Source: a virus (taxonomy: Duplodnaviria; Heunggongvirae; Uroviricota; Caudoviricetes). Taken from it: DNA of 43,512 bases. The notes beneath the pieces are model-generated. The model was given only the letters and a program-made list of their open reading frames with translations, was not told the DNA's origin and made no database searches. Both the position numbers and the translations under genes were made by a program. The DNA is taken from positions 1-43,512 of IMG/VR virus record IMGVR_UViG_2563366800_000009; one strand, given 5' to 3'. This document shows, one piece after another, positions 1,009 to 43,512 of the stretch (within the stretch, counting starts at the first letter, position 1; the number at the start of each line of letters is the position of its first letter).

Positions 1009-1083
1009 GTCCTCTTAGTTAAATGGATATAACGAGCCCCTCCTAAGGGCTAATTGCAGGTTCGATTCCTGCAGGGGACACCA
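1009..1083 (+). tRNA. argW: tRNA-Arg (anticodon CCU); prophage integration site (attL side)
   Basis: 75-nt cloverleaf read by eye: acceptor GTCCTCT/AGGGGAC, anticodon loop CTCCTAA, T-arm GGTTCGATTCC, discriminator A plus CCA. Confidence 0.9.
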
Positions 1084-1199
1084 TTTATCAGTTCGCTCCC
1101 ATCCGTACCAGTCCGCAAAATCCCCTGAATATCAAGCCTTCCGTATATTCACGGTTCGTCATGGTTCGCGTCAGATCGTTGACAGCCGCACTCCATGAC

Positions 1200-1244: not shown

Positions 1245-2402
1245 ATGCTCACCGTTAAGCAGATTGAAGCAGCAAAGCCGAAAGAAAAACCATACCGCCT
1301 TCTCGATGGTAATGGCCTGTACCTTTATGTTCCTGTATCCGGGAAAAAGGTATGGCAGCTTCGCTACAAGATTGACGGTAAGGAGAAAATCCTGACCGTC
1401 GGAAAATATCCGCTTATGACTTTGCAGGAAGCAAGGGATAAGGCATGGACTGCGAGGAAAGACATCTCGGTTGGCATCGATCCGGTAAAGGCGAAAAAGG
1501 CTTCGTCTAACAACAATTCATTTAGTGCGATTTACAAGGAATGGTACGAGCACAAGAAGCAAGTCTGGTCAGTAGGCTATGCAACTGAACTTGCCAAAAT
1601 GTTTGATGACGACATTTTACCCATCATCGGCGGTCTTGAGATTCAGGATATTGAGCCGATGCAACTGCTGGAAGTAATCCGCAGATTTGAAGATCGCGGT
1701 GCAATGGAACGAGCCAATAAAGCCCGCAGAAGATGCGGCGAGGTTTTCCGTTACGCTATTGTCACCGGCAGGGCTAAATATAACCCGGCACCTGACCTTG
1801 CTGACGCCATGAAAGGATACCGCAAGAAGAACTTCCCGTTTCTTCCTGCCGACCAGATCCCGGCATTCAACAAAGCACTGGCAACATTTTCAGGAAGTAT
1901 CGTATCGCTCATTGCTACCAAAATTTTACGCTACACCGCCCTAAGAACGAAAGAGCTTCGTTCCATGCAATGGAAGAACGTCGATTTTGAAAACAGGATT
2001 ATCACCATCGACGCCAGTGTGATGAAGGGACGCAAAATTCATGTGGTCCCGATGTCAGACCAGGTGGTTGAACTTCTCACTACGCTAAGCTCCATCACTA
2101 AACCAGTATCAGAGTTTGTTTTTGCCGGGCGCAACGATAAGAAGAAGCCGATCTGCGAGAACGCGGTGCTGCTTGTGATCAAACAAATCGGCTATGAAGG
2201 TCTGGAAAGCGGTCACGGATTCAGGCATGAATTCAGCACGATTATGAACGAGCACGAATGGCCTGCTGACGCTATTGAAGTGCAACTGGCACATGCCAAC
2301 GGCGGATCTGTGCGTGGGATTTACAACCATGCTCAGTATCTCGATAAGCGCAGAGAAATGATGCAGTGGTGGGCGGATTATCTCGATGAGAGGGTGGCAT
2401 AG
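1245..2402 (+). CDS. intS: Tyrosine integrase IntS (P4-like family), 385 aa
   Basis: Protein begins MLTVKQIEAAKPKEKPYRLLDGNGLYLYVP, recognised as KplE1 IntS; ORF track extends it upstream to a GTG at 1209 but the ATG at 1245 gives the known 385-aa length; adjacent to tRNA. Confidence 0.9.
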   Translation: MLTVKQIEAAKPKEKPYRLLDGNGLYLYVPVSGKKVWQLRYKIDGKEKILTVGKYPLMTLQEARDKAWTARKDISVGIDPVKAKKASSNNNSFSAIYKEWYEHKKQVWSVGYATELAKMFDDDILPIIGGLEIQDIEPMQLLEVIRRFEDRGAMERANKARRRCGEVFRYAIVTGRAKYNPAPDLADAMKGYRKKNFPFLPADQIPAFNKALATFSGSIVSLIATKILRYTALRTKELRSMQWKNVDFENRIITIDASVMKGRKIHVVPMSDQVVELLTTLSSITKPVSEFVFAGRNDKKKPICENAVLLVIKQIGYEGLESGHGFRHEFSTIMNEHEWPADAIEVQLAHANGGSVRGIYNHAQYLDKRREMMQWWADYLDERVA

Positions 2403-11348: not shown

Positions 11349-12196
11349 TACTGCTCCGCGATTATCTTGATGGTTGTGGCAGTAAACGCCGCACCATTTG
11401 ACTGAATAGTTAACGTACTGCCATTTGTGGCAAGAAAGCCGTCTTTATCCACGCTGAAGAACGTAGCTAACAGGATGTTGTCGGTTGTTGTCGCCGCATT
11501 ACGACTGCTGACCAGTGTGTCAGGAACAGAGCCGGAAAAGGTTAGCTGCATTGACCTGTTGGAGGTTCCGCTGGGCCACGTGCCGACAATCGACAACTTG
11601 AAGAGCAGGGTTTTGTTCTCGTTGAACACAACCATCTTGTTGTTAACTGTGTCGAAGAATGGTGCCAACGAGCCGGATGACGGCGTGAGCGTTTTCAGCA
11701 GGCTAACAAGGTTGGTCGGCGCTGTCGGGATGGTTACTGATACGCCAGAGTAAACAACCTCTGACTTCTTGCGAGTAGTGGCATACTCCAGAGCATCGAT
11801 GCGCGTTTCATGGTCTGAAACCTGCGATTCCAGCGACTGAACTCTGGTATCAAGCGATGCAATATCGCTTTCATTCTGAGCTATTCGTGTTTCATGTTCC
11901 TGAAGAGTTGATTCTGCCTGGCTGATTCGCTCCTCATGATTAACAAGCGTTGCTTCCGCAGCAGAAATTCGCTGCTCATGGTCAGCGAGAATCACATCCT
12001 GCTCATCGTTCCTGACTTGTGCGTCATAAGCACCCTGTCCGGCCTCGTTGGCTTTGTTCGCCACGTTACCAACATCAGTACCCTGTGCGATAACGTAAAG
12101 CAGATACGACTGCGAGAAGATATTGCGTGGAAGGACTGATGTGTCGAGCCGTGTAGCCTGAATGATTACCGGCACATTGAGATTCGAATCCGCCAT
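11348..12196 (-). CDS. Tail needle protein (P22 gp26-like) with coiled-coil core
   Basis: Coiled-coil segment [39 protein letters not shown]; position after tail hub gene. Confidence 0.65.
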
Positions 12197-13614
12197 TACT
12201 CAATCCTTATCTGGCAGCCAGACAGAGTGACAGGTGACTTCGTGATAACGCGCAATTTGAAACCAATGTTTTTCCTGATGCGCCCTACTTTCTTCCACAA
12301 AACGCGTTTGTCGTAAACGAACGGTTCATTCTGCTCAATCATCTGCTCACGCCCGTAATTGATGCCGTCAGTGGTTGCAGAGAGGAACAGGCGGTCGGCG
12401 TACTGAGCTACGCCAGTGGATGATTCCACCTCCAGATCGAAGCATCTGGCGTTATCCGCTTTGAACAGTGGAGTAAACAGCAGGTGTTCCTGTTGAAGCC
12501 CATACTGACTGCTGATATCGAACTGCAATTTCCCGGTCACGGACTCCAGCTTATCGCCGCACGTTATTTGGTTGCCTTCGTAAATGAAGTCGATAGCGCG
12601 GTACACATCGTCATACAGGCCTGTTTTCAGTACACACCATTGCGGGCCATTGGAGCTTGAAGATGCGTCGTAAACAAGAACATGGCGCGGAAGGTGGATA
12701 ATCAGCAACTCATGCGCATCAAACCGCAACGATTCCATCACGCCATCAGCCAGTTCATCAGCAGTGTAGGAGCGGAGGATTTTCTCAATGCTCGCACTGG
12801 CGATTGGTGACACCTGACCGGAGCCGATGATGTACACAGACGGCGCACCTGTTGCCGGATTGCTGATGAACGCATATGAATCAGCAAACGGCGTTTTGCA
12901 GTAGGTTCCGGCGATTCCTTTTTGCACCATCAACGATGGCTGGGCGACATACAAAGCGGCACCAACAGTGGTTGCGCCCGTCAGGGAGAAATATTCAATC
13001 GTCGATGAACCAAAGCAGACGATGAAGTCTCGCCATGTACCTATGCCGATGATGCCATCAGGCTGAGATTCTGCGCGATATTGTGCGCTGTATCGGTCAG
13101 GATGTGATTCGTCTTCAAGGTCAGTGATAAACCATGAATCAGTACCGTCTTTTGACCACGCATAACGCCCACGTAAGCGCGTAATGTCACGAACTGAACC
13201 TAACTCGTACTGTGTGAATCCGCTGTCTGTAGGCCAGTTTGAGACGGTTTTAACCGTGCCATCATAGCGATACTCGACCAGTTGACCATTAACACCTACC
13301 GCCTGTGATGTCCGACCATGAGCCATTGATACTCGACCACTTCCGGCAACATCACCGACTTCACTTTCTCCTTTGTACAGCTTCCCACCACACACACGAT
13401 AAACAGCATTCTGCGCCATGTTGTACTCGACGCCGCGCGATACGCCGTTCACATCAGAACGTTTGGCAATGCCCGGGAATGAGCGAAGATATCCGCTGCT
13501 GTTAAGGATTTCTTTTGGTGTAGCCAACATATTCACTGGCAGATAGTCGATATAGTCGGCGTTTCGAAAGTCTTTGCCGACGCCTTTCATAAGCGGAAGT
13601 TGCTGAATCGGCAT
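12196..13614 (-). CDS. Tail hub protein, P22 gp10-like
   Basis: 472 aa, same length and position as P22 gp10. Confidence 0.75.
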
Positions 13615-24210: not shown

Positions 24211-24286
24211 TGGTGCTGGTTAACGGACTTGAACCGCTACCCATTCGCTTACAAGGCGACTGCTCTACCATTGGAGCTAAACCAGC
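24211..24286 (-). tRNA. Phage-encoded tRNA-Thr-like gene (anticodon UGU)
   Basis: Cloverleaf read by eye: acceptor GCTGGTT/AACCAGC, D-arm GCTC-CAATGGTA-GAGC, anticodon loop CTTGTAA, T-loop TTCAAGT, discriminator A, CCA; one anticodon-stem mismatch. Confidence 0.6.
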
Positions 24287-24291
24287 ATGTT

Positions 24292-24366
24292 TGGCGGGAC
24301 AGCGTGGACTCGAACCACGATAAGAAGGTTAACAGCCTTCCGTAATGACCTTTATACGACTGACCC
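24292..24366 (-). tRNA. Phage-encoded tRNA-Asn-like gene (anticodon GUU), possibly degenerate
   Basis: Anticodon arm GAAGG-CTGTTAA-CCTTC, T-arm CGTGG-TTCGAGT-CCACG, 3' GCCA; acceptor stem has a T-T mismatch and the D-stem is only 3 bp. Confidence 0.4.
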
Positions 24367-30330: not shown

Positions 30331-31766
30331 CAGAATCCTCCTTTCTTCTTGGACTGAGGTTCCTCGCGTTCACGGCGGCGCATTTCAGCAGACTGTTGGT
30401 CTGTGTCATAAATAGCGCCATTTGCCTGAATGCAATACACCGTGCCGGTATTGCCATGACGATTGAGACGAAGGATTAGTTCAGTTTCACCAGGTGGAAC
30501 ACTGTCATCAAAAGCGCCTTCACGATGGATCCCAACCCAATAATCGCAATCCTGTTCAATCTGCCCTGTATCTCGTGAGTCACTTGGTAATGGGCGTTTA
30601 TTGGTTCTGCTTTCCAGTGCGCGGTTAAGCTGCGTCAGAAGCACAACAACGCAATCAAGCTCTTTGGCAAGGTTCTTCAGTCCTTTGGTGATCATGCCGT
30701 AAGCAAGGTCGTTGCGATCGGCCTTCTCAGCGGTCATTAGTGTCAGGTAATCGACCAGAATCATGCCAACACATCCTTTTTCTCGCTTGATTCGACGGCT
30801 TTCGCTGACGATTTGAGCCAGAGATAATCCCGGCGTGTCGTCGATGTAAAGCAGGTCGATTTCACTCAAGCGATTGGCTGTTTCGATCGCCCTGTTGAAG
30901 TCACCATCGTAATCACCCTGATAGCCGTCATCGGCGTCATTTGTCGCCGGAAGGTAAAAAATATTCGGGTTAACACCTGACTTCTGCCCTACCAGTTTTT
31001 CCAGTATCTGGTCACCTGGCATTTCAAGGCTGAACATCAGAGCGGGCTTTTTCTCATGCACTGCGCAGTTGATTGCCATCTGGCTGTATAGCGTCGTTTT
31101 CCCCATCTTAGGGCGAGCGCCAATGACAAACAGAGAGCCTTTCACCAGACCTTTCGGTGACAGCATCCTGTCCAGCGATGGGATCCCTGTGCTCATTCCC
31201 CGTTGTTCGCCTGATGGATCAAATCGCTTCTCAAGGTCGCTAACCCAGTCTTCCATGACCTCACCAAATGAGCGAAGGCCGCGACGCGATCCGGTTTTTG
31301 CATGGTCTGTCAGTTGCGTGAAAATCGCCTGAATAGCTTCGTACTTCTGCGTTGCAGTCATTCCATTGCGGGAATAGAGCAATTCCGTCGCTTCAGTCAT
31401 GCGGTTGATGGCGTAGCGTTCCATTGCGGTTTCGCGAACCTGCATTGCATAAGCAACGATGTTTGCTGCGCTTGGCGTGTTCTTTGCGATCTCAGCGATA
31501 TAAGCAAAACCGCCAACAGACACCGTTAACGATTTACGCTCCAGTTCATCGAAAAGCGTCAGGCCATCTACTGGCTTTTGCTCACGGTGCATTCTGGTTA
31601 TTTCTTCGAAAAGGATTTTGTGTGGTCGGCTGTAAAATGAATCAGGCTTCAGCATCGCCAGAACTTTCTGGACGCGCTCACTGCTGTCATCATCCAGAAG
31701 CAATCCACCAATCACCGCCTGCTCTGCCTCGATGCTATGGGGCGGCGCATAAAAATTATCGGTCAT
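30330..31766 (-). CDS. Replicative DNA helicase, DnaB-like (P22 gene 12-like)
   Basis: Walker A GARPKMGKT and DnaB-family sequence; start at ATG 31766 with GAGGG RBS. Confidence 0.9.
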   Translation of the reverse strand: MTDNFYAPPHSIEAEQAVIGGLLLDDDSSERVQKVLAMLKPDSFYSRPHKILFEEITRMHREQKPVDGLTLFDELERKSLTVSVGGFAYIAEIAKNTPSAANIVAYAMQVRETAMERYAINRMTEATELLYSRNGMTATQKYEAIQAIFTQLTDHAKTGSRRGLRSFGEVMEDWVSDLEKRFDPSGEQRGMSTGIPSLDRMLSPKGLVKGSLFVIGARPKMGKTTLYSQMAINCAVHEKKPALMFSLEMPGDQILEKLVGQKSGVNPNIFYLPATNDADDGYQGDYDGDFNRAIETANRLSEIDLLYIDDTPGLSLAQIVSESRRIKREKGCVGMILVDYLTLMTAEKADRNDLAYGMITKGLKNLAKELDCVVVLLTQLNRALESRTNKRPLPSDSRDTGQIEQDCDYWVGIHREGAFDDSVPPGETELILRLNRHGNTGTVYCIQANGAIYDTDQQSAEMRRREREEPQSKKKGGF

Positions 31767-32583
31767 CGTGTTCACCCTCACGAACTTTCAGGTAGGTATT
31801 ATCGTTAAGCAGGAAATCAAATCCCTTTTTGTGCCAGACAGTTCCGCGTTGATGGTTTGGGCGCTCTTCGAACATCCATCGGCAATTTTCGCCTACGTAG
31901 CTCAAATAATTTCTCCAGTCCTGCATCGTGAACCCATGCCCGTCAAGCTGGCGGGTTATCACTCCGGCTTTGCGCCAGAACGTTCGGATCTGGTTTTTAC
32001 GCTTGTCATTCAGTGCGCGGATTCTTGGCGCTTCAGGAAGGATTTCGTGGTAAGCATCGACAACATCCTGACAGCTGACGGAAGGTTTTTTCTTGTCAGA
32101 CTTTTTGTCTGCTGTGGCACTCTCTAATACGTCAGTATTAGAGATATTATTTATATTATTGTTTATGGACAACTGTTGGACAACCGTTGGACAATCTCCG
32201 CTGAGAGCCGCACCATTACTGGTGTTTGCGTTGGACAACTGTTGGACAACCGTTGGACAATTTTTTGCCTGAAAATCGTCATATTTAACGATTGTAAACA
32301 GGCTAAATTTCTTCCCCATCGAGCAAATATTAAGCATACCTTTCGACTCAAAAGTCCGTAATAAGCTCCGAACTTTGTTGTCGGGGATGAATGTTTCTCT
32401 GACCAGCGACGGGCGTCCAGTTATCATCTGACCGCGCTCAACAGTTATCGGACCGATATCCGTATTGACGACAGTAGATTCGTGATTAGCCTTGAGGATT
32501 AAGTGAAGCCAAAGATGTACTGCCTGAGAGTCCTTATAGAGCCTGCTGTCCATAAACTGGCGGTGTATAGAGACATACCCCAT
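31756..32583 (-). CDS. Replication initiator, lambda O/P22 gene 18-like, containing the origin iterons
   Basis: Iteron array lies inside the ORF; AGGAGG RBS before ATG at 32583; directly upstream of the helicase gene. Confidence 0.7.
   Translation of the reverse strand: MGYVSIHRQFMDSRLYKDSQAVHLWLHLILKANHESTVVNTDIGPITVERGQMITGRPSLVRETFIPDNKVRSLLRTFESKGMLNICSMGKKFSLFTIVKYDDFQAKNCPTVVQQLSNANTSNGAALSGDCPTVVQQLSINNNINNISNTDVLESATADKKSDKKKPSVSCQDVVDAYHEILPEAPRIRALNDKRKNQIRTFWRKAGVITRQLDGHGFTMQDWRNYLSYVGENCRWMFEERPNHQRGTVWHKKGFDFLLNDNTYLKVREGEHDDR
32165..32263. repeat. Phage replication origin iterons: two clusters of three 11-bp repeats TTGGACAAC(T/C)G, followed by an AT-rich segment
   Basis: Six tandem or near-tandem copies seen at 32165-32197 and 32231-32263. 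Confidence 0.75.
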
Positions 32584-32633
32584 ACTGGATGCCTCCTGAT
32601 GTTGTACAGGGTTATGCCTGTAATCAGCTAACT

Positions 32634-32794
32634 TAACGACGCCCATGTTTCACTCCTGCTTTGGCTAGTCTGTAAACACCAACAAGGCGCTCTGCGAACG
32701 CCCTGTTATTTGCTGCGGCTACCACTAATCCCTCAGGTGAATCAGGGTGTCGAATCTCTTCTTTTTCCTGGTATTTCTTACGACGTTTTGTCAT
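32634..32794 (-). CDS. Hypothetical small basic protein (53 aa) between cII and the O-like gene
   Basis: ATG with AGGAG RBS; not in ORF track. Confidence 0.4.
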
Positions 32795-32828: not shown

Positions 32829-33107
32829 TCAGGCCTCGAAGAATTCGCCGTTCTTCGGGGCTTTTTCTTTTGTCAGCATTCTGGCTACTTTCTTAGCCAG
32901 TTCCGCCAACTCCTCGTCTTCAACACCCCACTCCAGTACAGCCAGAAGCATGGCCATCTTTGGGATAAAGCTGTCTTTCCATCGCGAAATTTGCGATTCA
33001 TTGATCCCTAATGCGTCGGCCACCTTTCGCTGACCACGTACAGCAATTCGATTCAGGATGTTGCTTGTAATTGCATTCGCTTTCTTGCGAGTACTTGTAA
33101 GTTGCAT
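32829..33107 (-). CDS. cII: Transcriptional activator CII
   Basis: SQISRWK...MLLAVLEWGVEDEELAELAKKVA closely resembles lambda CII. Confidence 0.85.
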   Translation of the reverse strand: MQLTSTRKKANAITSNILNRIAVRGQRKVADALGINESQISRWKDSFIPKMAMLLAVLEWGVEDEELAELAKKVARMLTKEKAPKNGEFFEA

Positions 33108-33215: not shown

Positions 33216-33410
33216 CTATTTGTTTTTCTTGTTGCTTGGGAAAGGACGAACTTCCTCTCCAATCACACTGCCATCAGGCTTTACCGTAACCATGATGTTA
33301 CGGCCTGCCAGAATGGCCTTGCTGATAGCGCACTGGATTACACCAAAGTCACTGGCTGCTTTAGCCTGTCCATGGATTTTGGCGTAATCGGCAAGTGTCA
33401 TTCGAATCAT
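33216..33410 (-). CDS. cro: Cro repressor
   Basis: [32 protein letters not shown]...PFPSNKK resembles lambda Cro; GGAG RBS before ATG 33410. Confidence 0.85.
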
Positions 33411-33439
33411 ATGCACTCTCCGTTATTAACCATGAATAA

Positions 33440-33516: not shown

Positions 33517-34233
33517 ATGGAAAATAAAAAATCACTGACGACAGAACAGCTCGAAGACGCTAAGCGGCTTAAGGCTTTGTATGAGTCAAAAAAGAAAGAA
33601 TTGGGAATAACCCAATACTCAATCGCTGATGAACTGGGTATCACCCAAGGAGCGGTAGGGCATTATCTTAATGGCAGAAACGCGCTAAACGTTGAGGTTG
33701 CATCTGGTTTTGCACGATTGTTGCAAGTCTCAATTGCTGATTTTAGCCAGTCAATTGCTGCCAAGGTTGCAGAACAGGCAGAAAGCCTTAAGAGCGATGC
33801 CAACGTAAGGTATGCAGGGGAATACAGAGCAGGAAAGAGGTATCCGGTGTTAAGCAGTATCCAGGCTGGCTCGTGGTGTGAAGCATGCGAACCATACACC
33901 ATTAAAGACATAGATGTTTGGCTTGAGTCTGACGCGCATATTCAAGGTAATGCGTTTTGGCTTAAAGTGGAAGGTGATTCAATGACGGCACCGGTTGGGT
34001 TAAGCATTCCAGAGGGAACATTCGTTCTTTTCGATACCGGAAGGGAGGCGATCAACGGCAGCTTGGTCATAGCAAAACTTTCTGACTCTAACGAAGCAAC
34101 ATTCAAGAAGCTGATAATCGACGGCGGAAATAAATACCTCAAGGGACTTAATCCTGCATGGCCTCTCGTGCCAATCAATGGAAACTGCAAGATTATAGGC
34201 GTTGCAATTGAGACAAAACTAAGGCTGGTTTGA
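33517..34233 (+). CDS. cI: CI repressor (HTH N-terminal domain, S24-peptidase-like C-terminal domain)
   Basis: LTTEQLEDAKRLKALYESKKKELG and C-terminal LKVEGDSMTAP...TFKKL resemble lambda CI; divergent from cro. Confidence 0.9.
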   Translation: MENKKSLTTEQLEDAKRLKALYESKKKELGITQYSIADELGITQGAVGHYLNGRNALNVEVASGFARLLQVSIADFSQSIAAKVAEQAESLKSDANVRYAGEYRAGKRYPVLSSIQAGSWCEACEPYTIKDIDVWLESDAHIQGNAFWLKVEGDSMTAPVGLSIPEGTFVLFDTGREAINGSLVIAKLSDSNEATFKKLIIDGGNKYLKGLNPAWPLVPINGNCKIIGVAIETKLRLV

Positions 34234-35494: not shown

Positions 35495-35567
35495 GCCGCA
35501 TAGTCGGCCTTCTTTTGGCATAAACAACAGAATAAACACTGCACTGAATTATTTGAGGTGAGATATG
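35495..35567 (+). repeat. 73-bp direct repeat, copy 1 (ends with RBS and ATG of the downstream gene)
   Basis: Identical to 36021-36093. Confidence 0.85.
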
Positions 35568-36020: not shown

Positions 36021-36093
36021 GCCGCATAGTCGGCCTTCTTTTGGCATAAACAACAGAATAAACACTGCACTGAATTATTTGAGGTGAGATATG
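36021..36093 (+). repeat. 73-bp direct repeat, copy 2
   Basis: Identical to 35495-35567. Confidence 0.85.
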
Positions 36094-43086: not shown

Positions 43087-43254
43087 ATGCACTTCCGAGT
43101 TACAGGTGAATGGAATGGAGAACCATTCAACAGGGTTATCGAAGCAGAGGACATCAACGACTGCTATAACCACTGGATGATATGGGCGCAGATAGCACAT
43201 GCAGACGTAACCAATATTCGAATTGAAGAACTGAAAGAACACAAAGCCGCCTGA
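43087..43254 (+). CDS. ypdJ: YpdJ-like small protein (55 aa)
   Basis: GGAG RBS; sits immediately upstream of torI as ypdJ does in KplE1. Confidence 0.45.
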   Translation: MHFRVTGEWNGEPFNRVIEAEDINDCYNHWMIWAQIAHADVTNIRIEELKEHKAA

Positions 43255-43268
43255 TGGCGGTTTTTTAT
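43246..43268 (+). terminator. Rho-independent terminator
   Basis: CCGCC-TGAT-GGCGG hairpin followed by TTTTTTATT. Confidence 0.6.
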
Positions 43269-43276
43269 TGCCTGAT

Positions 43277-43292
43277 TTGCAGGTTCGATTCC
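43277..43292 (+). other. 16-bp exact copy of the argW T-arm segment (TTGCAGGTTCGATTCC; compare 1054-1069); att-core-like element upstream of torI
   Basis: Exact 16-bp identity seen in sequence. Confidence 0.5.
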
Positions 43293-43311
43293 CTATTCGG
43301 AGATAGCACTC

Positions 43312-43512
43312 ATGCAACACGAACTACAGCCTGATTCACTGGTTGATTTGAAATTCATCATGGCCGATACTGGCTTCGGTAAAACCTTCATCTATGACCG
43401 GATTAAGTCCGGCGACCTGCCAAAAGCCAAAGTTATCCACGGGCGAGCAAGATGGTTATATCGTGACCATTGTGAATTCAAAAATAAGCTCTTAAGCCGC
43501 GCCAATGGGTAA
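43312..43512 (+). CDS. torI: Recombination directionality factor (excisionase) TorI
   Basis: MQHELQPDSLVDLKFIMADTGFGKTFIYDRIKSGDLPKAKVIHGRARWLYRDHCEFKNKLL, recognised as KplE1 TorI; the window ends at its stop codon. Confidence 0.85.
   Translation: MQHELQPDSLVDLKFIMADTGFGKTFIYDRIKSGDLPKAKVIHGRARWLYRDHCEFKNKLLSRANG

What the first reader, a model, noticed from the sequence alone, without database searches (positions are those of the whole stretch)
43277..43292. Exact 16-bp copy of the argW T-arm lies 19 bp upstream of torI
TTGCAGGTTCGATTCC at 43277-43292 is identical to 1054-1069 inside argW, too long for chance in a window this size. The sequence after it is not the tRNA 3' end and torI lies downstream, so it does not look like a canonical attR. 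It could be a relic of an earlier integration or rearrangement, a secondary or pseudo-att site, or an integrase core-type binding site in the torI promoter region.
Basis: seen in the sequence. Interest (0 to 1): 0.55.

Follow-up and report, generated by a model that had tools for sequence, protein, structure and literature searches.

The report
tRNA T-arm copy upstream of torI
The 16-base repeat is real, but it is not the prophage end: it is a conserved, tRNA-derived box in front of the excisionase gene of a well-studied phage integration module, and its function has not been tested.

Summary
TTGCAGGTTCGATTCC occurs exactly twice: at 1054-1069 in the argW T-arm, and at 43277-43292, 19 nt before torI.

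The window is an argW prophage carrying the KplE1/HK620/Sf6 recombination module. TorI is 100% and IntS 99% identical to K-12.

- **The 16-mer is not attR.** In relatives the real crossover core, CTGCAGGGGACACCAT, lies 74 nt past the torI stop. The window ends at that stop, so the core is off-window.
- **No recombination at the 16-mer was found.** No such junction exists in 5,426 E. coli genomes or 50,697 phage records. A 135-bp attR lacking it recombines in vitro. Deleting the 17-bp core abolishes Kapi1 integration at argW.
- **It has been annotated before.** The same 16-mer precedes torI in K-12, HK620, Sf6, Kapi1 and CUS-3. GenBank calls it "att core" in CUS-3, which I judge wrong, and part of a putative cII/pI promoter in HK620 and Sf6.
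- **New here.** A core box, GTTCGATT(C/T)CC, sits 18-20 nt before the excisionase start codon in 13 of 24 excisionase clusters across Enterobacterales, all targeting argW. Neutral positions around it are scrambled. It does not track excisionase site specificity. It shares TTCGAT with the integrase's attB and attP left core sites.

Best reading: a tRNA-derived pseudo-B box, probably regulatory, function untested. The module is known; interest is modest.

The parts
1009..1083 (+). argW, tRNA-Arg(CCT); bacterial 5' part joined to a phage-supplied 3' end (attL)
   Evidence: ARAGORN; sequence.
1054..1069 (+). Copy 1 of the 16-mer: argW T-arm (5' T-stem strand, T loop, 2 nt). This is the B-side flank of the att core in attL/attB.
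1069..1084 (+). attL crossover core CTGCAGGGGACACCAT, identical to the KplE1, HK620 and Sf6 core
   Evidence: Sequence. Core given in PMC2951348. Annotated attP cores of HK620 and Sf6.
1089..1179 (+). TorI binding sites on attL, placed by homology with K-12: I1 CAGTTCGC 1089-1096, I2 CAGTCCGC 1109-1116, I3 CGGTTCGT 1152-1159, I4 TGGTTCGC 1162-1169, I5 CAGATCGT 1172-1179
   Evidence: Sequence. The layout (two blocks, 12-nt and 2-nt spacers, pentamers GTTCG/GTCCG/GATCG) is as described in PMC2951348.
1179..1244 (+). PintS -35 TTGACA (1179-1184), -10 TAAAAA (1203-1208), and GGGTAAAA-type IntS arm-type repeats (1200-1208, 1211-1219, 1221-1229 reversed, 1236-1244 reversed)
   Evidence: Sequence. 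Promoter and arm-type sites described for KplE1 in PMC2951348. HK620 attP repeat annotation.
1245..2402 (+). intS, P4-type tyrosine integrase, 99% identical to K-12 IntS
   Evidence: (Arm-DNA-bind_3, Phage_int_M, Phage_integrase).
43087..43254 (+). 55-aa ORF shared with lambda, at the distal end of the leftward early operon
43246..43266 (+). GC hairpin (GCCGCC-TGAT-GGCGG) followed by T6: an intrinsic-terminator-like element shared with lambda. Lambda homology ends at about 43273.
   Evidence: Sequence; alignment with lambda. The scan tool lists the hairpin on the minus strand.
43268..43280 (+). TTGC-N5-TTGC, annotated in HK620 and Sf6 as a cII site of a putative pI promoter. The second TTGC is the first 4 nt of the 16-mer.
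   Evidence: The spacing is non-canonical, and the first half-site is TTAC in 58 of 79 related loci.
43277..43292 (+). Copy 2 of the 16-mer (the finding). The conserved core box GTTCGATTCC is 43283-43292.
43299..43302 (+). GGAG, the Shine-Dalgarno sequence of torI, part of the conserved leader block GGAGAT(A/G)AAACC
43312..43512 (+). torI, the recombination directionality factor. The window ends at its stop codon. The P-arm arm-type sites start at 43507 and continue off-window, as does the attR core.
   Evidence: Downstream sequence seen in relatives L006, L005, L270 and L277.

Best explanation
The 16-mer is the E. coli-lineage form of a conserved box derived from the argW T-arm. The box consensus is (C)AGGTTCGATT(C/T)CC, with GTTCGATT invariant. 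It marks the outer (left) edge of the RDF-attP-int recombination module of argW-integrating phages and sits 18-20 nt upstream of the RDF (TorI) start codon. RDF means recombination directionality factor, i.e. the excisionase. The box is not a crossover site. Integration and excision use the core CTGCAGGGGACACCAT, whose attR copy lies 74 nt beyond the torI stop, just outside this window.

Shown: the box belongs to the known KplE1/HK620/Sf6/CUS-3/Kapi1 module, no natural junction uses it, and it is retained across genera while neighbouring neutral positions are randomised.

Inferred, origin: it is argW-derived DNA left by an ancient att-junction event. One example would be integration into a tRNA-like site followed by an internal deletion. 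Different lineages still keep different tRNA-identical flanks.

Inferred, function (the least secure step): it persists as a cis-acting 'pseudo-B' site. It is identical to the left, B-side flank of attB that every integrase of this family must contact, and it shares TTCGAT, in the same register, with the C site of attP. I propose that the integrase catalytic/core-binding domain binds it, possibly bridged to the arm-type sites about 215 bp away at the torI 3' end. Such binding would damp read-through expression of the RDF.

My confidence by step: about 0.9 for 'not an att site, part of the known module'; about 0.6 for 'maintained by selection'; about 0.3 for 'integrase core-type half-site'.
For: - **Module identity.** TorI is 100% and IntS 99% identical to K-12. 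The attL core, TorI sites and arm-type repeats are in place (PMC2951348).
- **True attR or attP core 74 nt after the torI stop.** Seen in K-12, strain GN02050, UTI89, HK620, Sf6 and Kapi1.
- **Identical 16-mer upstream of torI.** Present in all of these and in 74 of 80 distinct TorI-identical loci.
- **No deletion junction.** The predicted product (argW 5' part + 16-mer + torI) is found in 0 of 5,426 E. coli genomes.
- **No circle junction.** No single-piece junction (16-mer + argW 3' end + intS) exists in E. coli genomes or phage records. Every full-length hit is two pieces about 537 bp apart, which is the real attP with torI inside.
- **Experiments.** In vitro excision works with a 135-bp attR that starts in the torI 3' end (PMC3509656). 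Deleting the 17-bp attB gave 0 of 24 Kapi1 integrations at argW (PMC8787464).
- **Conservation.** The box, with at most 1 mismatch, is present in 117 of 146 unique leaders and in 13 of 24 RDF clusters (90% aa). It lies 18-20 nt from the ATG.
- **Neutral sites are scrambled.** Among 30 representative lineages, identity at -7..-30 from the box is 0.29 and at third codon positions 0.48. GTTCGATT is invariant in the 20-sequence alignment.
- **Population data.** Within 79 E. coli-type loci the 16-mer has only singleton variants, whereas 15 of 67 torI third positions carry common variants.
- **tRNA origin.** E. coli keeps TTGCAGG plus the box. Serratia keeps CAGG plus the box plus TG, reading TTCCTG as the tRNA does. 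Pantoea keeps the box plus TG.
- **Link to the integrase sites.** C sites in most lineages read (A/T)TTCGATGT(A/T)|TGCAGGG and attB reads GGTTCGATTCC|TGCAGGG, in the same register.
- **Independence from RDF specificity.** The box occurs both with GTTCG-type and with TTACC-type RDF-site arrays.
Against: - No binding or expression data exist for this sequence, so the functional step is inference only.
- The box is dispensable. Eleven of 24 RDF clusters lack it, and two losses look like simple microhomology deletions.
- It keeps the weak B-type form (TTCGATTCC). Selection for integrase binding might be expected to favour the stronger C-type form (TTCGATGTA).
- Isolated core-type half-sites acting as operators are not an established mechanism.
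- Some apparent long-range conservation may reflect recent horizontal exchange of the leader. The same leader is found with very different RDFs.
- The with-box set was chosen by the presence of the box, so the 0.97 box identity is partly circular. The fraction of lineages with the box and the flank comparison are the informative numbers.
Confidence: 0.55

Rival explanations
1. Functionless scar. The 16-mer is only a relic of an ancient att junction or rearrangement. It persists because it lies inside the short, slowly changing leader of the RDF gene and spreads with the module by horizontal exchange.
For: The box is lost without obvious consequence in 11 of 24 RDF clusters, and two losses are microhomology deletions. 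The leader is itself a mosaic unit found with different RDFs. In vitro recombination does not need the box. No consensus RNA structure and no promoter were found.
Against: GTTCGATT is invariant at a fixed distance from the ATG in lineages whose upstream flanks (0.29 identity) and third codon positions (0.38-0.48) are near saturation, including phiEt88 with 36-39% RDF identity. Only singleton variants occur in 79 E. coli-type loci. Tandem duplications of the box are retained in the Midgardsormr-type and L205 lineages.
Confidence: 0.2
2. RDF operator. TorI binds the GTTCG pentamer inside the box and feeds back on its own expression, as it does at PintS.
For: TorI sites are defined by GTTCG, GTCCG and GATCG, and TorI represses PintS through sites I3-I5 (PMC2951348). 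The box contains GGTTCG, as sites I3 and I4 of this window do. The orientation matches that of the attL sites. Some lineages have two boxes in tandem.
Against: The box is also present in lineages whose RDF recognition helix and P'-arm repeats are of a different type (ATTACC/GTTACC): phiEt88, the L176 group and the L168 group. It is absent from GTTCG-type lineages Chronis and Ehr49. The invariant part (GTTCGATT) extends beyond the pentamer. The base after the pentamer is A, whereas mapped sites have C or T. TorI binds cooperatively to arrays, and here there is a single site.
Confidence: 0.12
3. RNA-level leader element. In the read-through transcript from the leftward early promoter (pL), the 3' half of the box (AUUCC) pairs with the Shine-Dalgarno GGAG(A)U and limits RDF translation.
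For: The box lies at a fixed distance from the Shine-Dalgarno sequence and the ATG. UUCC/GGAG or AUU(U)CC/GGAGAU pairing appears in the minimum-energy folds of the phiEt88 and Citrobacter-type leaders, and a UUCGA/UCGGA hairpin covers part of the Shine-Dalgarno sequence in the E. coli-type leader.
Against: RNAalifold finds no consensus pair in 20 diverse leaders. Fold z-scores range from -1.4 to +0.4. The invariant bases are GTTCGATT, not the anti-Shine-Dalgarno part, which is the variable C/T position. The T-stem is not maintained, so it is not a T-arm mimic. Neither ARAGORN nor Rfam calls anything here.
Confidence: 0.12
4. cII-dependent pI-type promoter, as annotated in the HK620 and Sf6 records. 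TTGC-N5-TTGC would recruit CII, the 13 nt AGGTTCGATTCCC would be spacer, and TATTCG would be the -10. The transcript would start after the torI Shine-Dalgarno sequence and so express int without the RDF.
For: HK620 and Sf6 GenBank annotation. The geometry parallels lambda pI base for base: the first TTGC is homologous to lambda's, and 13 nt separate the second TTGC from the -10. The window phage encodes a CII homologue.
Against: The spacing is N5, whereas the pRE-like site of this same phage is the canonical TTGC-N6-TTGC (33061-33074). The first half-site is TTAC in 58 of 79 related loci, including K-12. TTGC repeats are absent in the Salmonella, Edwardsiella and Erwinia lineages, which nevertheless keep the box. 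A spacer would not be the conserved part. IntS has its own autoregulated promoter (PMC2951348).
Confidence: 0.08
5. Alternative or secondary att crossover site, as annotated for CUS-3 ('attL core' and 'attR core'). The integrase would recombine the two 16-mers.
For: The two copies form a perfect direct repeat flanking almost the whole prophage. GenBank record CP000711 annotates exactly these 16 nt as att cores.
Against: The CUS-3 integrase and attL arm are the KplE1/HK620 type. The identical prophage end in UTI89 continues into torI and then the normal core next to dsdC. No junction formed at the 16-mer was found in 5,426 genomes or 50,697 phage records. Packaged phages all carry torI between the 16-mer and the core. 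Recombination there would truncate argW. With the 17-bp core deleted but the T-arm left in place, Kapi1 does not integrate at argW.
Confidence: 0.02

Closest known systems
KplE1 (CPS-53) / HK620 / Sf6 / Kapi1 recombination module: intS, torI (hkaC), attL and attR at argW
   Same: TorI is 100% and IntS 99% identical. The 16-nt core, TorI sites, arm-type repeats and PintS are the same. So is the unusual layout with int next to attL and the RDF next to attR. The same 16-mer lies 19 nt before torI.
   Different: Nothing in the module itself differs. The window is a full-length lambdoid prophage of about 42 kb rather than the 10-kb K-12 remnant, and it is cut at the torI stop, so attR is missing.
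'attL core' and 'attR core' of phage CUS-3 (GenBank CP000711)
   Same: Exactly the same 16 nt at the same two positions.
   Different: The annotation treats them as the crossover sites and ends the phage before torI. The evidence here says the crossover is 294 nt further right and that torI belongs to the phage.
Lambda pI (CII-activated int promoter), and the 'pI' / 'phage integration' promoter annotated in HK620 and Sf6
   Same: Same position after the shared ORF55 terminator. The first TTGC is homologous, and 13 nt separate the second TTGC from a weak -10.
   Different: N5 rather than N6 spacing. The first half-site is usually TTAC. It is not conserved outside the E. coli lineage, whereas the 'spacer' is.
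pawZ-type pseudo-tRNA fragment at attR (the displaced 3' end of argW)
   Same: Both are partial copies of argW associated with the prophage's right end.
   Different: pawZ is the true core duplicate, covering the 3' T-stem strand and acceptor end, and lies after torI. The 16-mer is the adjacent, non-overlapping 5' part of the T-arm, lies before torI, and is phage DNA present in attP.
Core-type (B/C) integrase binding sites of lambda-like att sites
   Same: The box is identical to the attB B-side flank and shares TTCGAT with the C site in the same register.
   Different: It stands alone about 290 bp from the crossover, without an overlap region or a partner half-site. No binding has been shown.
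'Boundary sequences' of HK620 and Sf6 (bsq2): short conserved sequences at mosaic joints
   Same: The box and leader lie inside Sf6 bsq2, and mosaic joints fall immediately on both sides of them.
   Different: The strictly conserved part is only 10-12 nt, too short to explain its retention by homologous exchange alone.

Membership tests
Canonical att crossover core (attR) of the KplE1-type module | Duplicated at both prophage-chromosome junctions, with bacterial DNA directly outside it | tested here: not met
   The 16-mer is followed by torI, not by the dsdC flank. In relatives the flank starts after CTGCAGGGGACACCAT, 74 nt past torI.
Canonical att crossover core (attR) of the KplE1-type module | [quoted passage not shown] | tested here: not met
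   The sequence after the torI-side 16-mer is CTATTCGG..., not TGCAGGGGACACCA.
Canonical att crossover core (attR) of the KplE1-type module | Recombinant junctions (empty site, circle) formed at this sequence exist | tested here: not met
   0 of 5,426 E. coli genomes and 0 of 50,697 phage records.
Canonical att crossover core (attR) of the KplE1-type module | Required for recombination | tested here: not met
   From the literature, not from my own experiment: a 135-bp attR without it recombines in vitro (PMC3509656), and the 17-bp core is necessary for Kapi1 integration (PMC8787464).
KplE1/HK620-type recombination module (membership of the window as a whole) | P4-type integrase next to argW; AlpA/TorI-type RDF at the far end reading towards attR; 16-nt core; GTTCG RDF sites and GGGTAAAA arm-type repeats overlapping Pint | tested here: met
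   attR itself could not be seen because it is off-window.
CII-dependent promoter (lambda pRE/pI/paQ type) | TTGC-N6-TTGC flanking the -35 region | tested here: not met
   The spacing is N5. This phage's own pRE-like site is N6. The first repeat is TTAC in 58 of 79 loci.
CII-dependent promoter (lambda pRE/pI/paQ type) | CII-dependent transcription start | not testable with these tools
   Needs 5'-end mapping after infection.
TorI (RDF) binding site | Pentamer GTTCG (or GTCCG, GATCG) inside an 8-nt site YRGWYCGY | tested here: inconclusive
   GTTCG is present (43283-43287), but the 8-mer AGGTTCGA departs at positions 1 and 8.
TorI (RDF) binding site | Arrays of sites about one helical turn apart, and co-variation with RDF specificity | tested here: not met
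   There is a single site in E. coli-type modules. The box is unchanged in lineages with TTACC-type RDF repeats.
tRNA or pseudo-tRNA gene / T-arm RNA mimic | Cloverleaf, or at least a T-stem closing the loop | tested here: not met
   ARAGORN finds nothing at this site in the window or in 8 related loci. Rfam tRNA matches only argW. The 3' T-stem strand is not retained. There are no consensus pairs.
Integrase core-type half-site (B/C type) | Sequence matches the flank of the overlap region in attB or attP | tested here: met
   The box is identical to the attB B-side flank (GGTTCGATTCC|TGCAGGG). It shares TTCGAT with C sites of most lineages in the same register.
Integrase core-type half-site (B/C type) | Bound by the integrase C-terminal domains | not testable with these tools
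   Needs a footprint or EMSA with IntS.

The most novel reading that the evidence does not exclude
The GTTCGATTCC box is a previously unrecognised cis-regulatory 'pseudo-attB half-site'. The phage carries a copy of its target tRNA's T loop in front of the excisionase gene. The integrase, bridging from its arm-type sites at the torI 3' end, would loop out and silence the excisionase in lysogens. This would couple RDF expression to integrase occupancy. It would complement the known integrase and RDF control of PintS at the other prophage end.
Probability: 0.25. Interest if true: 0.55.

Novelty: already known. Interest (0 to 1): 0.3.

Why it matters
**For annotation.** The finding shows how a perfect tRNA-matching direct repeat can be mistaken for an att site. 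The CUS-3 GenBank record, and many automated prophage calls that stop at torI, cut off the excisionase or the real attR.

**For biology.** Control of torI expression is the least understood part of this recombination module. The integrase end is well characterised, while the excisionase is thought to be the main switch for excision. A short box that is identical to the target tRNA's T loop, conserved across Enterobacterales and placed just before the excisionase ribosome-binding site, is a concrete mutable candidate for that control. If it proves inert, it is simply a well-preserved scar documenting how the module was assembled.

Tried and rejected
- **Chance match.** Rejected on context and conservation, although a random 16-mer repeat somewhere in 43.5 kb is not rare.
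- **Recombination at the 16-mer.** Chimeric junction queries found nothing.
- **Pseudo-tRNA or T-arm mimic.** ARAGORN and Rfam were negative and the T-stem is not kept.
- **Conserved RNA structure.** RNAalifold gave 0 pairs and the fold z-scores were unremarkable.
- **Sigma-70 promoter in front of torI.** None was predicted on the + strand. Hand inspection gave only poor hexamers.
- **Antisense sRNA.** There is a weak STnc130 hit (28 bits against a gathering score of 55) on the minus strand. It was not reproduced in 12 related loci, so I dropped it.
- **Co-variation of the box with RDF specificity.** None was found.
- **Generalisation to modules aimed at other tRNAs.** IntS relatives below 40% identity (Pseudomonas VW-6S, phi297 and BR228a; Stenotrophomonas S1; Rhodobacter RcRios) have different gene layouts, so no comparable module could be examined.
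- **Residual tRNA similarity downstream of the box.** Comparing the acceptor-end GGGGACACCA with the Shine-Dalgarno region by eye from the printed sequences gave 4-6 matches of 14, which is not significant.
- **Papers not held in the library.** King et al. 2007 on CUS-3 could not be retrieved. A title-phrase search for Panis et al. 2007 (JBC) did not return the paper itself. What those authors wrote about this sequence could not be checked.
Full report
**1. The observation**

TTGCAGGTTCGATTCC is present exactly twice, both times on the + strand, at 1054-1069 and 43277-43292. No third site appears even with two mismatches.

ARAGORN places tRNA-Arg(CCT), argW, at 1009-1083. Copy 1 therefore covers the 5' strand of the T stem, the T loop and two bases of the 3' strand.

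Copy 2 ends 19 nt before the ATG (43312) of a 66-codon ORF that runs to the last base of the window. Its product is 100% identical to K-12 TorI and to PDB 1Z4H.

Identity stops sharply on both sides. The statement 'too long for chance' needs qualifying. Half of 20 shuffled windows contain some repeated 16-mer, and the real window has six repeat blocks of 16 nt or more. What makes this repeat non-random is its context and its conservation, covered in section 4.

**2. What the surroundings are**

The window is an argW prophage with the KplE1/HK620/Sf6-type recombination module.

The left end, directly after the 16-mer in argW, contains:
- the published 16-nt core CTGCAGGGGACACCAT (1069-1084; PMC2951348);
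- the five TorI sites in the published arrangement (PMC2951348; sequence);
- the PintS -35 and -10 elements and GGGTAAAA-type arm repeats;
- intS (1245-2402), 99% identical to K-12 IntS, with the Arm-DNA-binding, central and catalytic domains.

The right end is the distal part of the leftward early operon. It contains a 55-aa ORF shared with lambda (43087-43254), a GC hairpin followed by T6 (43246-43266), the 16-mer, a GGAG Shine-Dalgarno sequence, and torI.

The phage also has a CII homologue (32829-33107, minus strand; Pfam Phage_CII), with cro- and cI-like genes beside it.

**3. Where the real attR is, and whether the 16-mer is ever used**

The core lies 74 nt after the torI stop in every relative examined:
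- In HK620, Sf6 and Kapi1 phage DNA it is followed by the intS-side arm.
- In K-12, in the close relative GN02050 and in UTI89 it is followed by the dsdC flank.

The window stops at the torI stop codon, so attR is simply cut off. Many IMG/VR prophage contigs end at the same place.

I built the two junctions that recombination between the 16-mers would create:
- The deletion product (argW 5' part + 16-mer + torI) is absent from all 5,426 complete E. coli genomes.
- The circle junction (16-mer + argW 3' end + intS arm) never occurs as one piece in those genomes or in 50,697 phage records. All full-coverage hits are two pieces about 537 bp apart, which is the genuine attP with torI between the 16-mer and the core.

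Published experiments agree. Excisive recombination works in vitro with a 135-bp attR whose left primer lies in the torI 3' end (PMC3509656). A precise deletion of the 17-bp core alone gave 0 of 24 Kapi1 integrations at argW (PMC8787464). Kapi1 carries the identical 16-mer.

The CUS-3 GenBank record annotates exactly these 16 nt as 'attL core' and 'attR core' and ends there. However, its integrase and attL arm are the KplE1 type. The 100%-identical prophage end in UTI89 runs on into torI and then the normal core. I conclude that the CUS-3 annotation is mistaken and that the record lacks torI.

**4. The 16-mer is part of a conserved box**

The same 16-mer precedes torI in K-12, HK620, Sf6, CUS-3 and Kapi1, and in 74 of 80 distinct TorI-identical loci. 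Five of the other six have a single substitution, and no match within three substitutions was found in the sixth.

I then collected RDF loci from annotated phages, IMG/VR and one genome per species. Every module in which a core could be read has an att core of the form TGCAGGGGAC..., so all target argW.

- In 117 of 146 unique leaders the sequence GTTCGATT(C/T)CC (at most 1 mismatch) lies 18-20 nt before the RDF ATG (25 nt in Serratia). It is followed by 4-6 variable bases and GGAGAT(A/G)AAACC.
- It is present in 13 of 24 RDF clusters at 90% amino-acid identity.
- The lineages include Citrobacter/Enterobacter, Serratia, Pantoea, Edwardsiella and the Salmonella Emek/g341c type (RDF about 50% identical). 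They also include Erwinia phiEt88 (36-39% identical).
- Two tandem copies occur in the Midgardsormr38-type and L205 lineages.

Among 30 representative lineages, pairwise identity is 0.29 at -7..-30 from the box and 0.48 at third codon positions. In a 20-sequence alignment GTTCGATT is invariant. The high identity of the box within this set is partly circular, because the set was selected for the box. The flank figures and the fraction of lineages are the informative numbers.

Within 79 E. coli-type loci the 16-mer carries only singleton variants. By contrast, 15 of 67 torI third positions and flanking positions -42, -45, -19 and -14 carry common variants. Zero common variants in 16 positions has a probability of about 0.02 at the synonymous rate.

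The box is therefore retained by more than inertia. It is also dispensable: 11 clusters lack it. In Dryocola and in the L173-175 group the loss looks like a deletion between CTGG/CCGG microhomologies.

**5. Origin**

Different lineages retain different tRNA-identical flanks:
- E. coli keeps TTGCAGG plus the box (16 nt).
- Serratia keeps CAGG plus the box plus TG, including the tRNA's TTCCTG.
- Pantoea keeps the box plus TG.
- Most others keep (C)AGG plus the box.

Together these cover TTGCAGGTTCGATTCCTG of argW. That pattern is what decay from a longer tRNA-derived segment would leave.

In argW the 16-mer abuts the crossover core. In the phage the two are separated by a 294-nt segment holding the leader, torI and the P arm. 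A simple history is an integrase-mediated integration into a tRNA or tRNA-like site followed by an internal deletion. That would leave the B-side T-arm next to the RDF cassette. This is inference, and I could not reconstruct the steps.

Mosaic joints crowd the box:
- Lambda homology stops at about 43273, four bases before the 16-mer.
- K-12 and the Salmonella phages have a 5' fragment of a P22-type xis just upstream.
- The same leader is found with very different RDFs.

**6. Function: what was tested**

- **cII/pI promoter** (HK620 and Sf6 annotation). The geometry mirrors lambda pI. However, the repeats are N5, while this phage's pRE-like site is N6. The first repeat is TTAC in 58 of 79 loci. 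The repeats are absent in other genera that keep the box.
- **TorI operator.** The box contains the TorI pentamer GTTCG. However, it is unchanged in lineages whose RDF helix and P'-arm repeats are of the ATTACC/GTTACC type, and it is missing in some GTTCG-type lineages.
- **RNA element.** No consensus pairs, no significant folding, no T-stem, and no tRNA or Rfam call. A weak UUCC/GGAG pairing is always possible, but that is not the invariant part of the box.
- **Sigma-70 promoter.** None was predicted.
- **Integrase core-type half-site.** The box equals the B-side flank of attB (GGTTCGATTCC|TGCAGGG). In most lineages the C site of attP reads (A/T)TTCGATGT(A/T)|TGCAGGG. TTCGAT is therefore shared in the same register by B, C and the box. 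In Ehr49 the core is a perfect GGTGTC-TGCAGGG-GACACC palindrome, which places the overlap at TGCAGGG. The only things constant across all box-bearing lineages are the host tRNA and the integrase's core specificity. That fits this reading best, but it remains untested. The box also keeps the weak B form rather than the stronger C form.

**7. Verdict**

The repeat is real and non-random. It is an already-sequenced and already-annotated part of a well-known module: once wrongly as an att core, and once speculatively as a promoter. It is not attR and not a used secondary att site.

The wider conservation of a T-loop box in front of the RDF gene of argW-specific modules did not come up in the papers I could search or read. 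It gives a specific, cheap experiment. It is a modest finding rather than a surprising one.

Noticed in passing
window 43512 (end); loci L016, L017, L020 and others: The window ends exactly at the torI stop codon, and many IMG/VR prophage contigs end 3 nt after torI. Automated prophage boundaries here systematically cut off the real attR, whose core lies 74 nt further on.
   Followed up: partly
CP000711.1 (L001 1-16, L002 1693-1708); L270 1529-1816: The CUS-3 GenBank record is delimited by the 16-mer and therefore lacks torI. The identical prophage end in UTI89 continues into torI. The attR core there carries a 1-bp deletion (CTGCAGGGACACCAT), which might impair excision.
   Followed up: partly
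L004 (HK620) 2857-2863 and 2882-2888; same in all lineages: attP has a conserved inverted repeat, CCCCTGC ... N18 ... GCAGGGG. It places an inverted copy of the core's first half about 20 nt to the left of the core. Its function is unknown; it may be an extra integrase site.
   Followed up: no
L009 (Erwinia phage Ehr49), attP core region: The core is a perfect inverted repeat GGTGTC-TGCAGGG-GACACC. This suggests a 7-bp overlap TGCAGGG and core-type half-sites GGTGTC/GACACC for this integrase family.
   Followed up: no
L005 (K-12) 12095-12235 (ypdJ); L010/L011 2435-2500: Just upstream of the box, K-12 and the Salmonella phages Emek and g341c carry the first 17 or so codons of a P22-type xis (…SLTLDEAC.FLKIS). 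This is a scar of replacement of an xis-int module by the torI-attP-intS module.
   Followed up: partly
window 32829-33107 (-) and 33061-33074 (+): A CII homologue (Pfam Phage_CII, E = 2e-41) has a canonical TTGC-N6-TTGC inside its 5' end on the opposite strand. This is a lambda-pRE-like arrangement. cro-like (33216-33416, minus strand) and cI-like (33517-34233, plus strand) genes lie next to it.
   Followed up: partly
window 32166-32232; 35495-35567 / 36021-36093; 33165 / 34865: Three repeats: three TGGACAAC-containing repeats inside the 296-aa ORF at 31756-32646 (ori-iteron-like); a 73-bp exact direct repeat 526 bp apart; and a 19-bp inverted repeat TTCCCGCATTTCGGCGGGA flanking the immunity region.
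   Followed up: no
window 24211-24366 (-): Phage-borne tRNA-Thr(TGT) and tRNA-Asn(GTT), side by side. Kapi1 is described as having two tRNAs immediately before its lysis module.
   Followed up: no
window 43235-43362 (-): A sub-threshold Rfam match to the Salmonella sRNA STnc130 (28 bits, gathering score 55, full model length). It is antisense to the torI start, the box and the terminator. It was not seen in 12 related loci.
   Followed up: partly
window 43318-43325 (-): torI codons 3-5 (CAC GAA CTA) read TAGTTCGT on the opposite strand. This is a good match to the TorI site consensus, inverted relative to the box and 37 bp from it. It is present in some lineages (L161, L166) and absent in others.
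   Followed up: partly
L101 (Dryocola), L173-L175: In these leaders the terminator T-run and TTGCC(T/C)GG run straight into the Shine-Dalgarno sequence. This looks like a microhomology (CTGG/CCGG) deletion of the roughly 24-nt box segment, so the box can be lost cleanly.
   Followed up: partly
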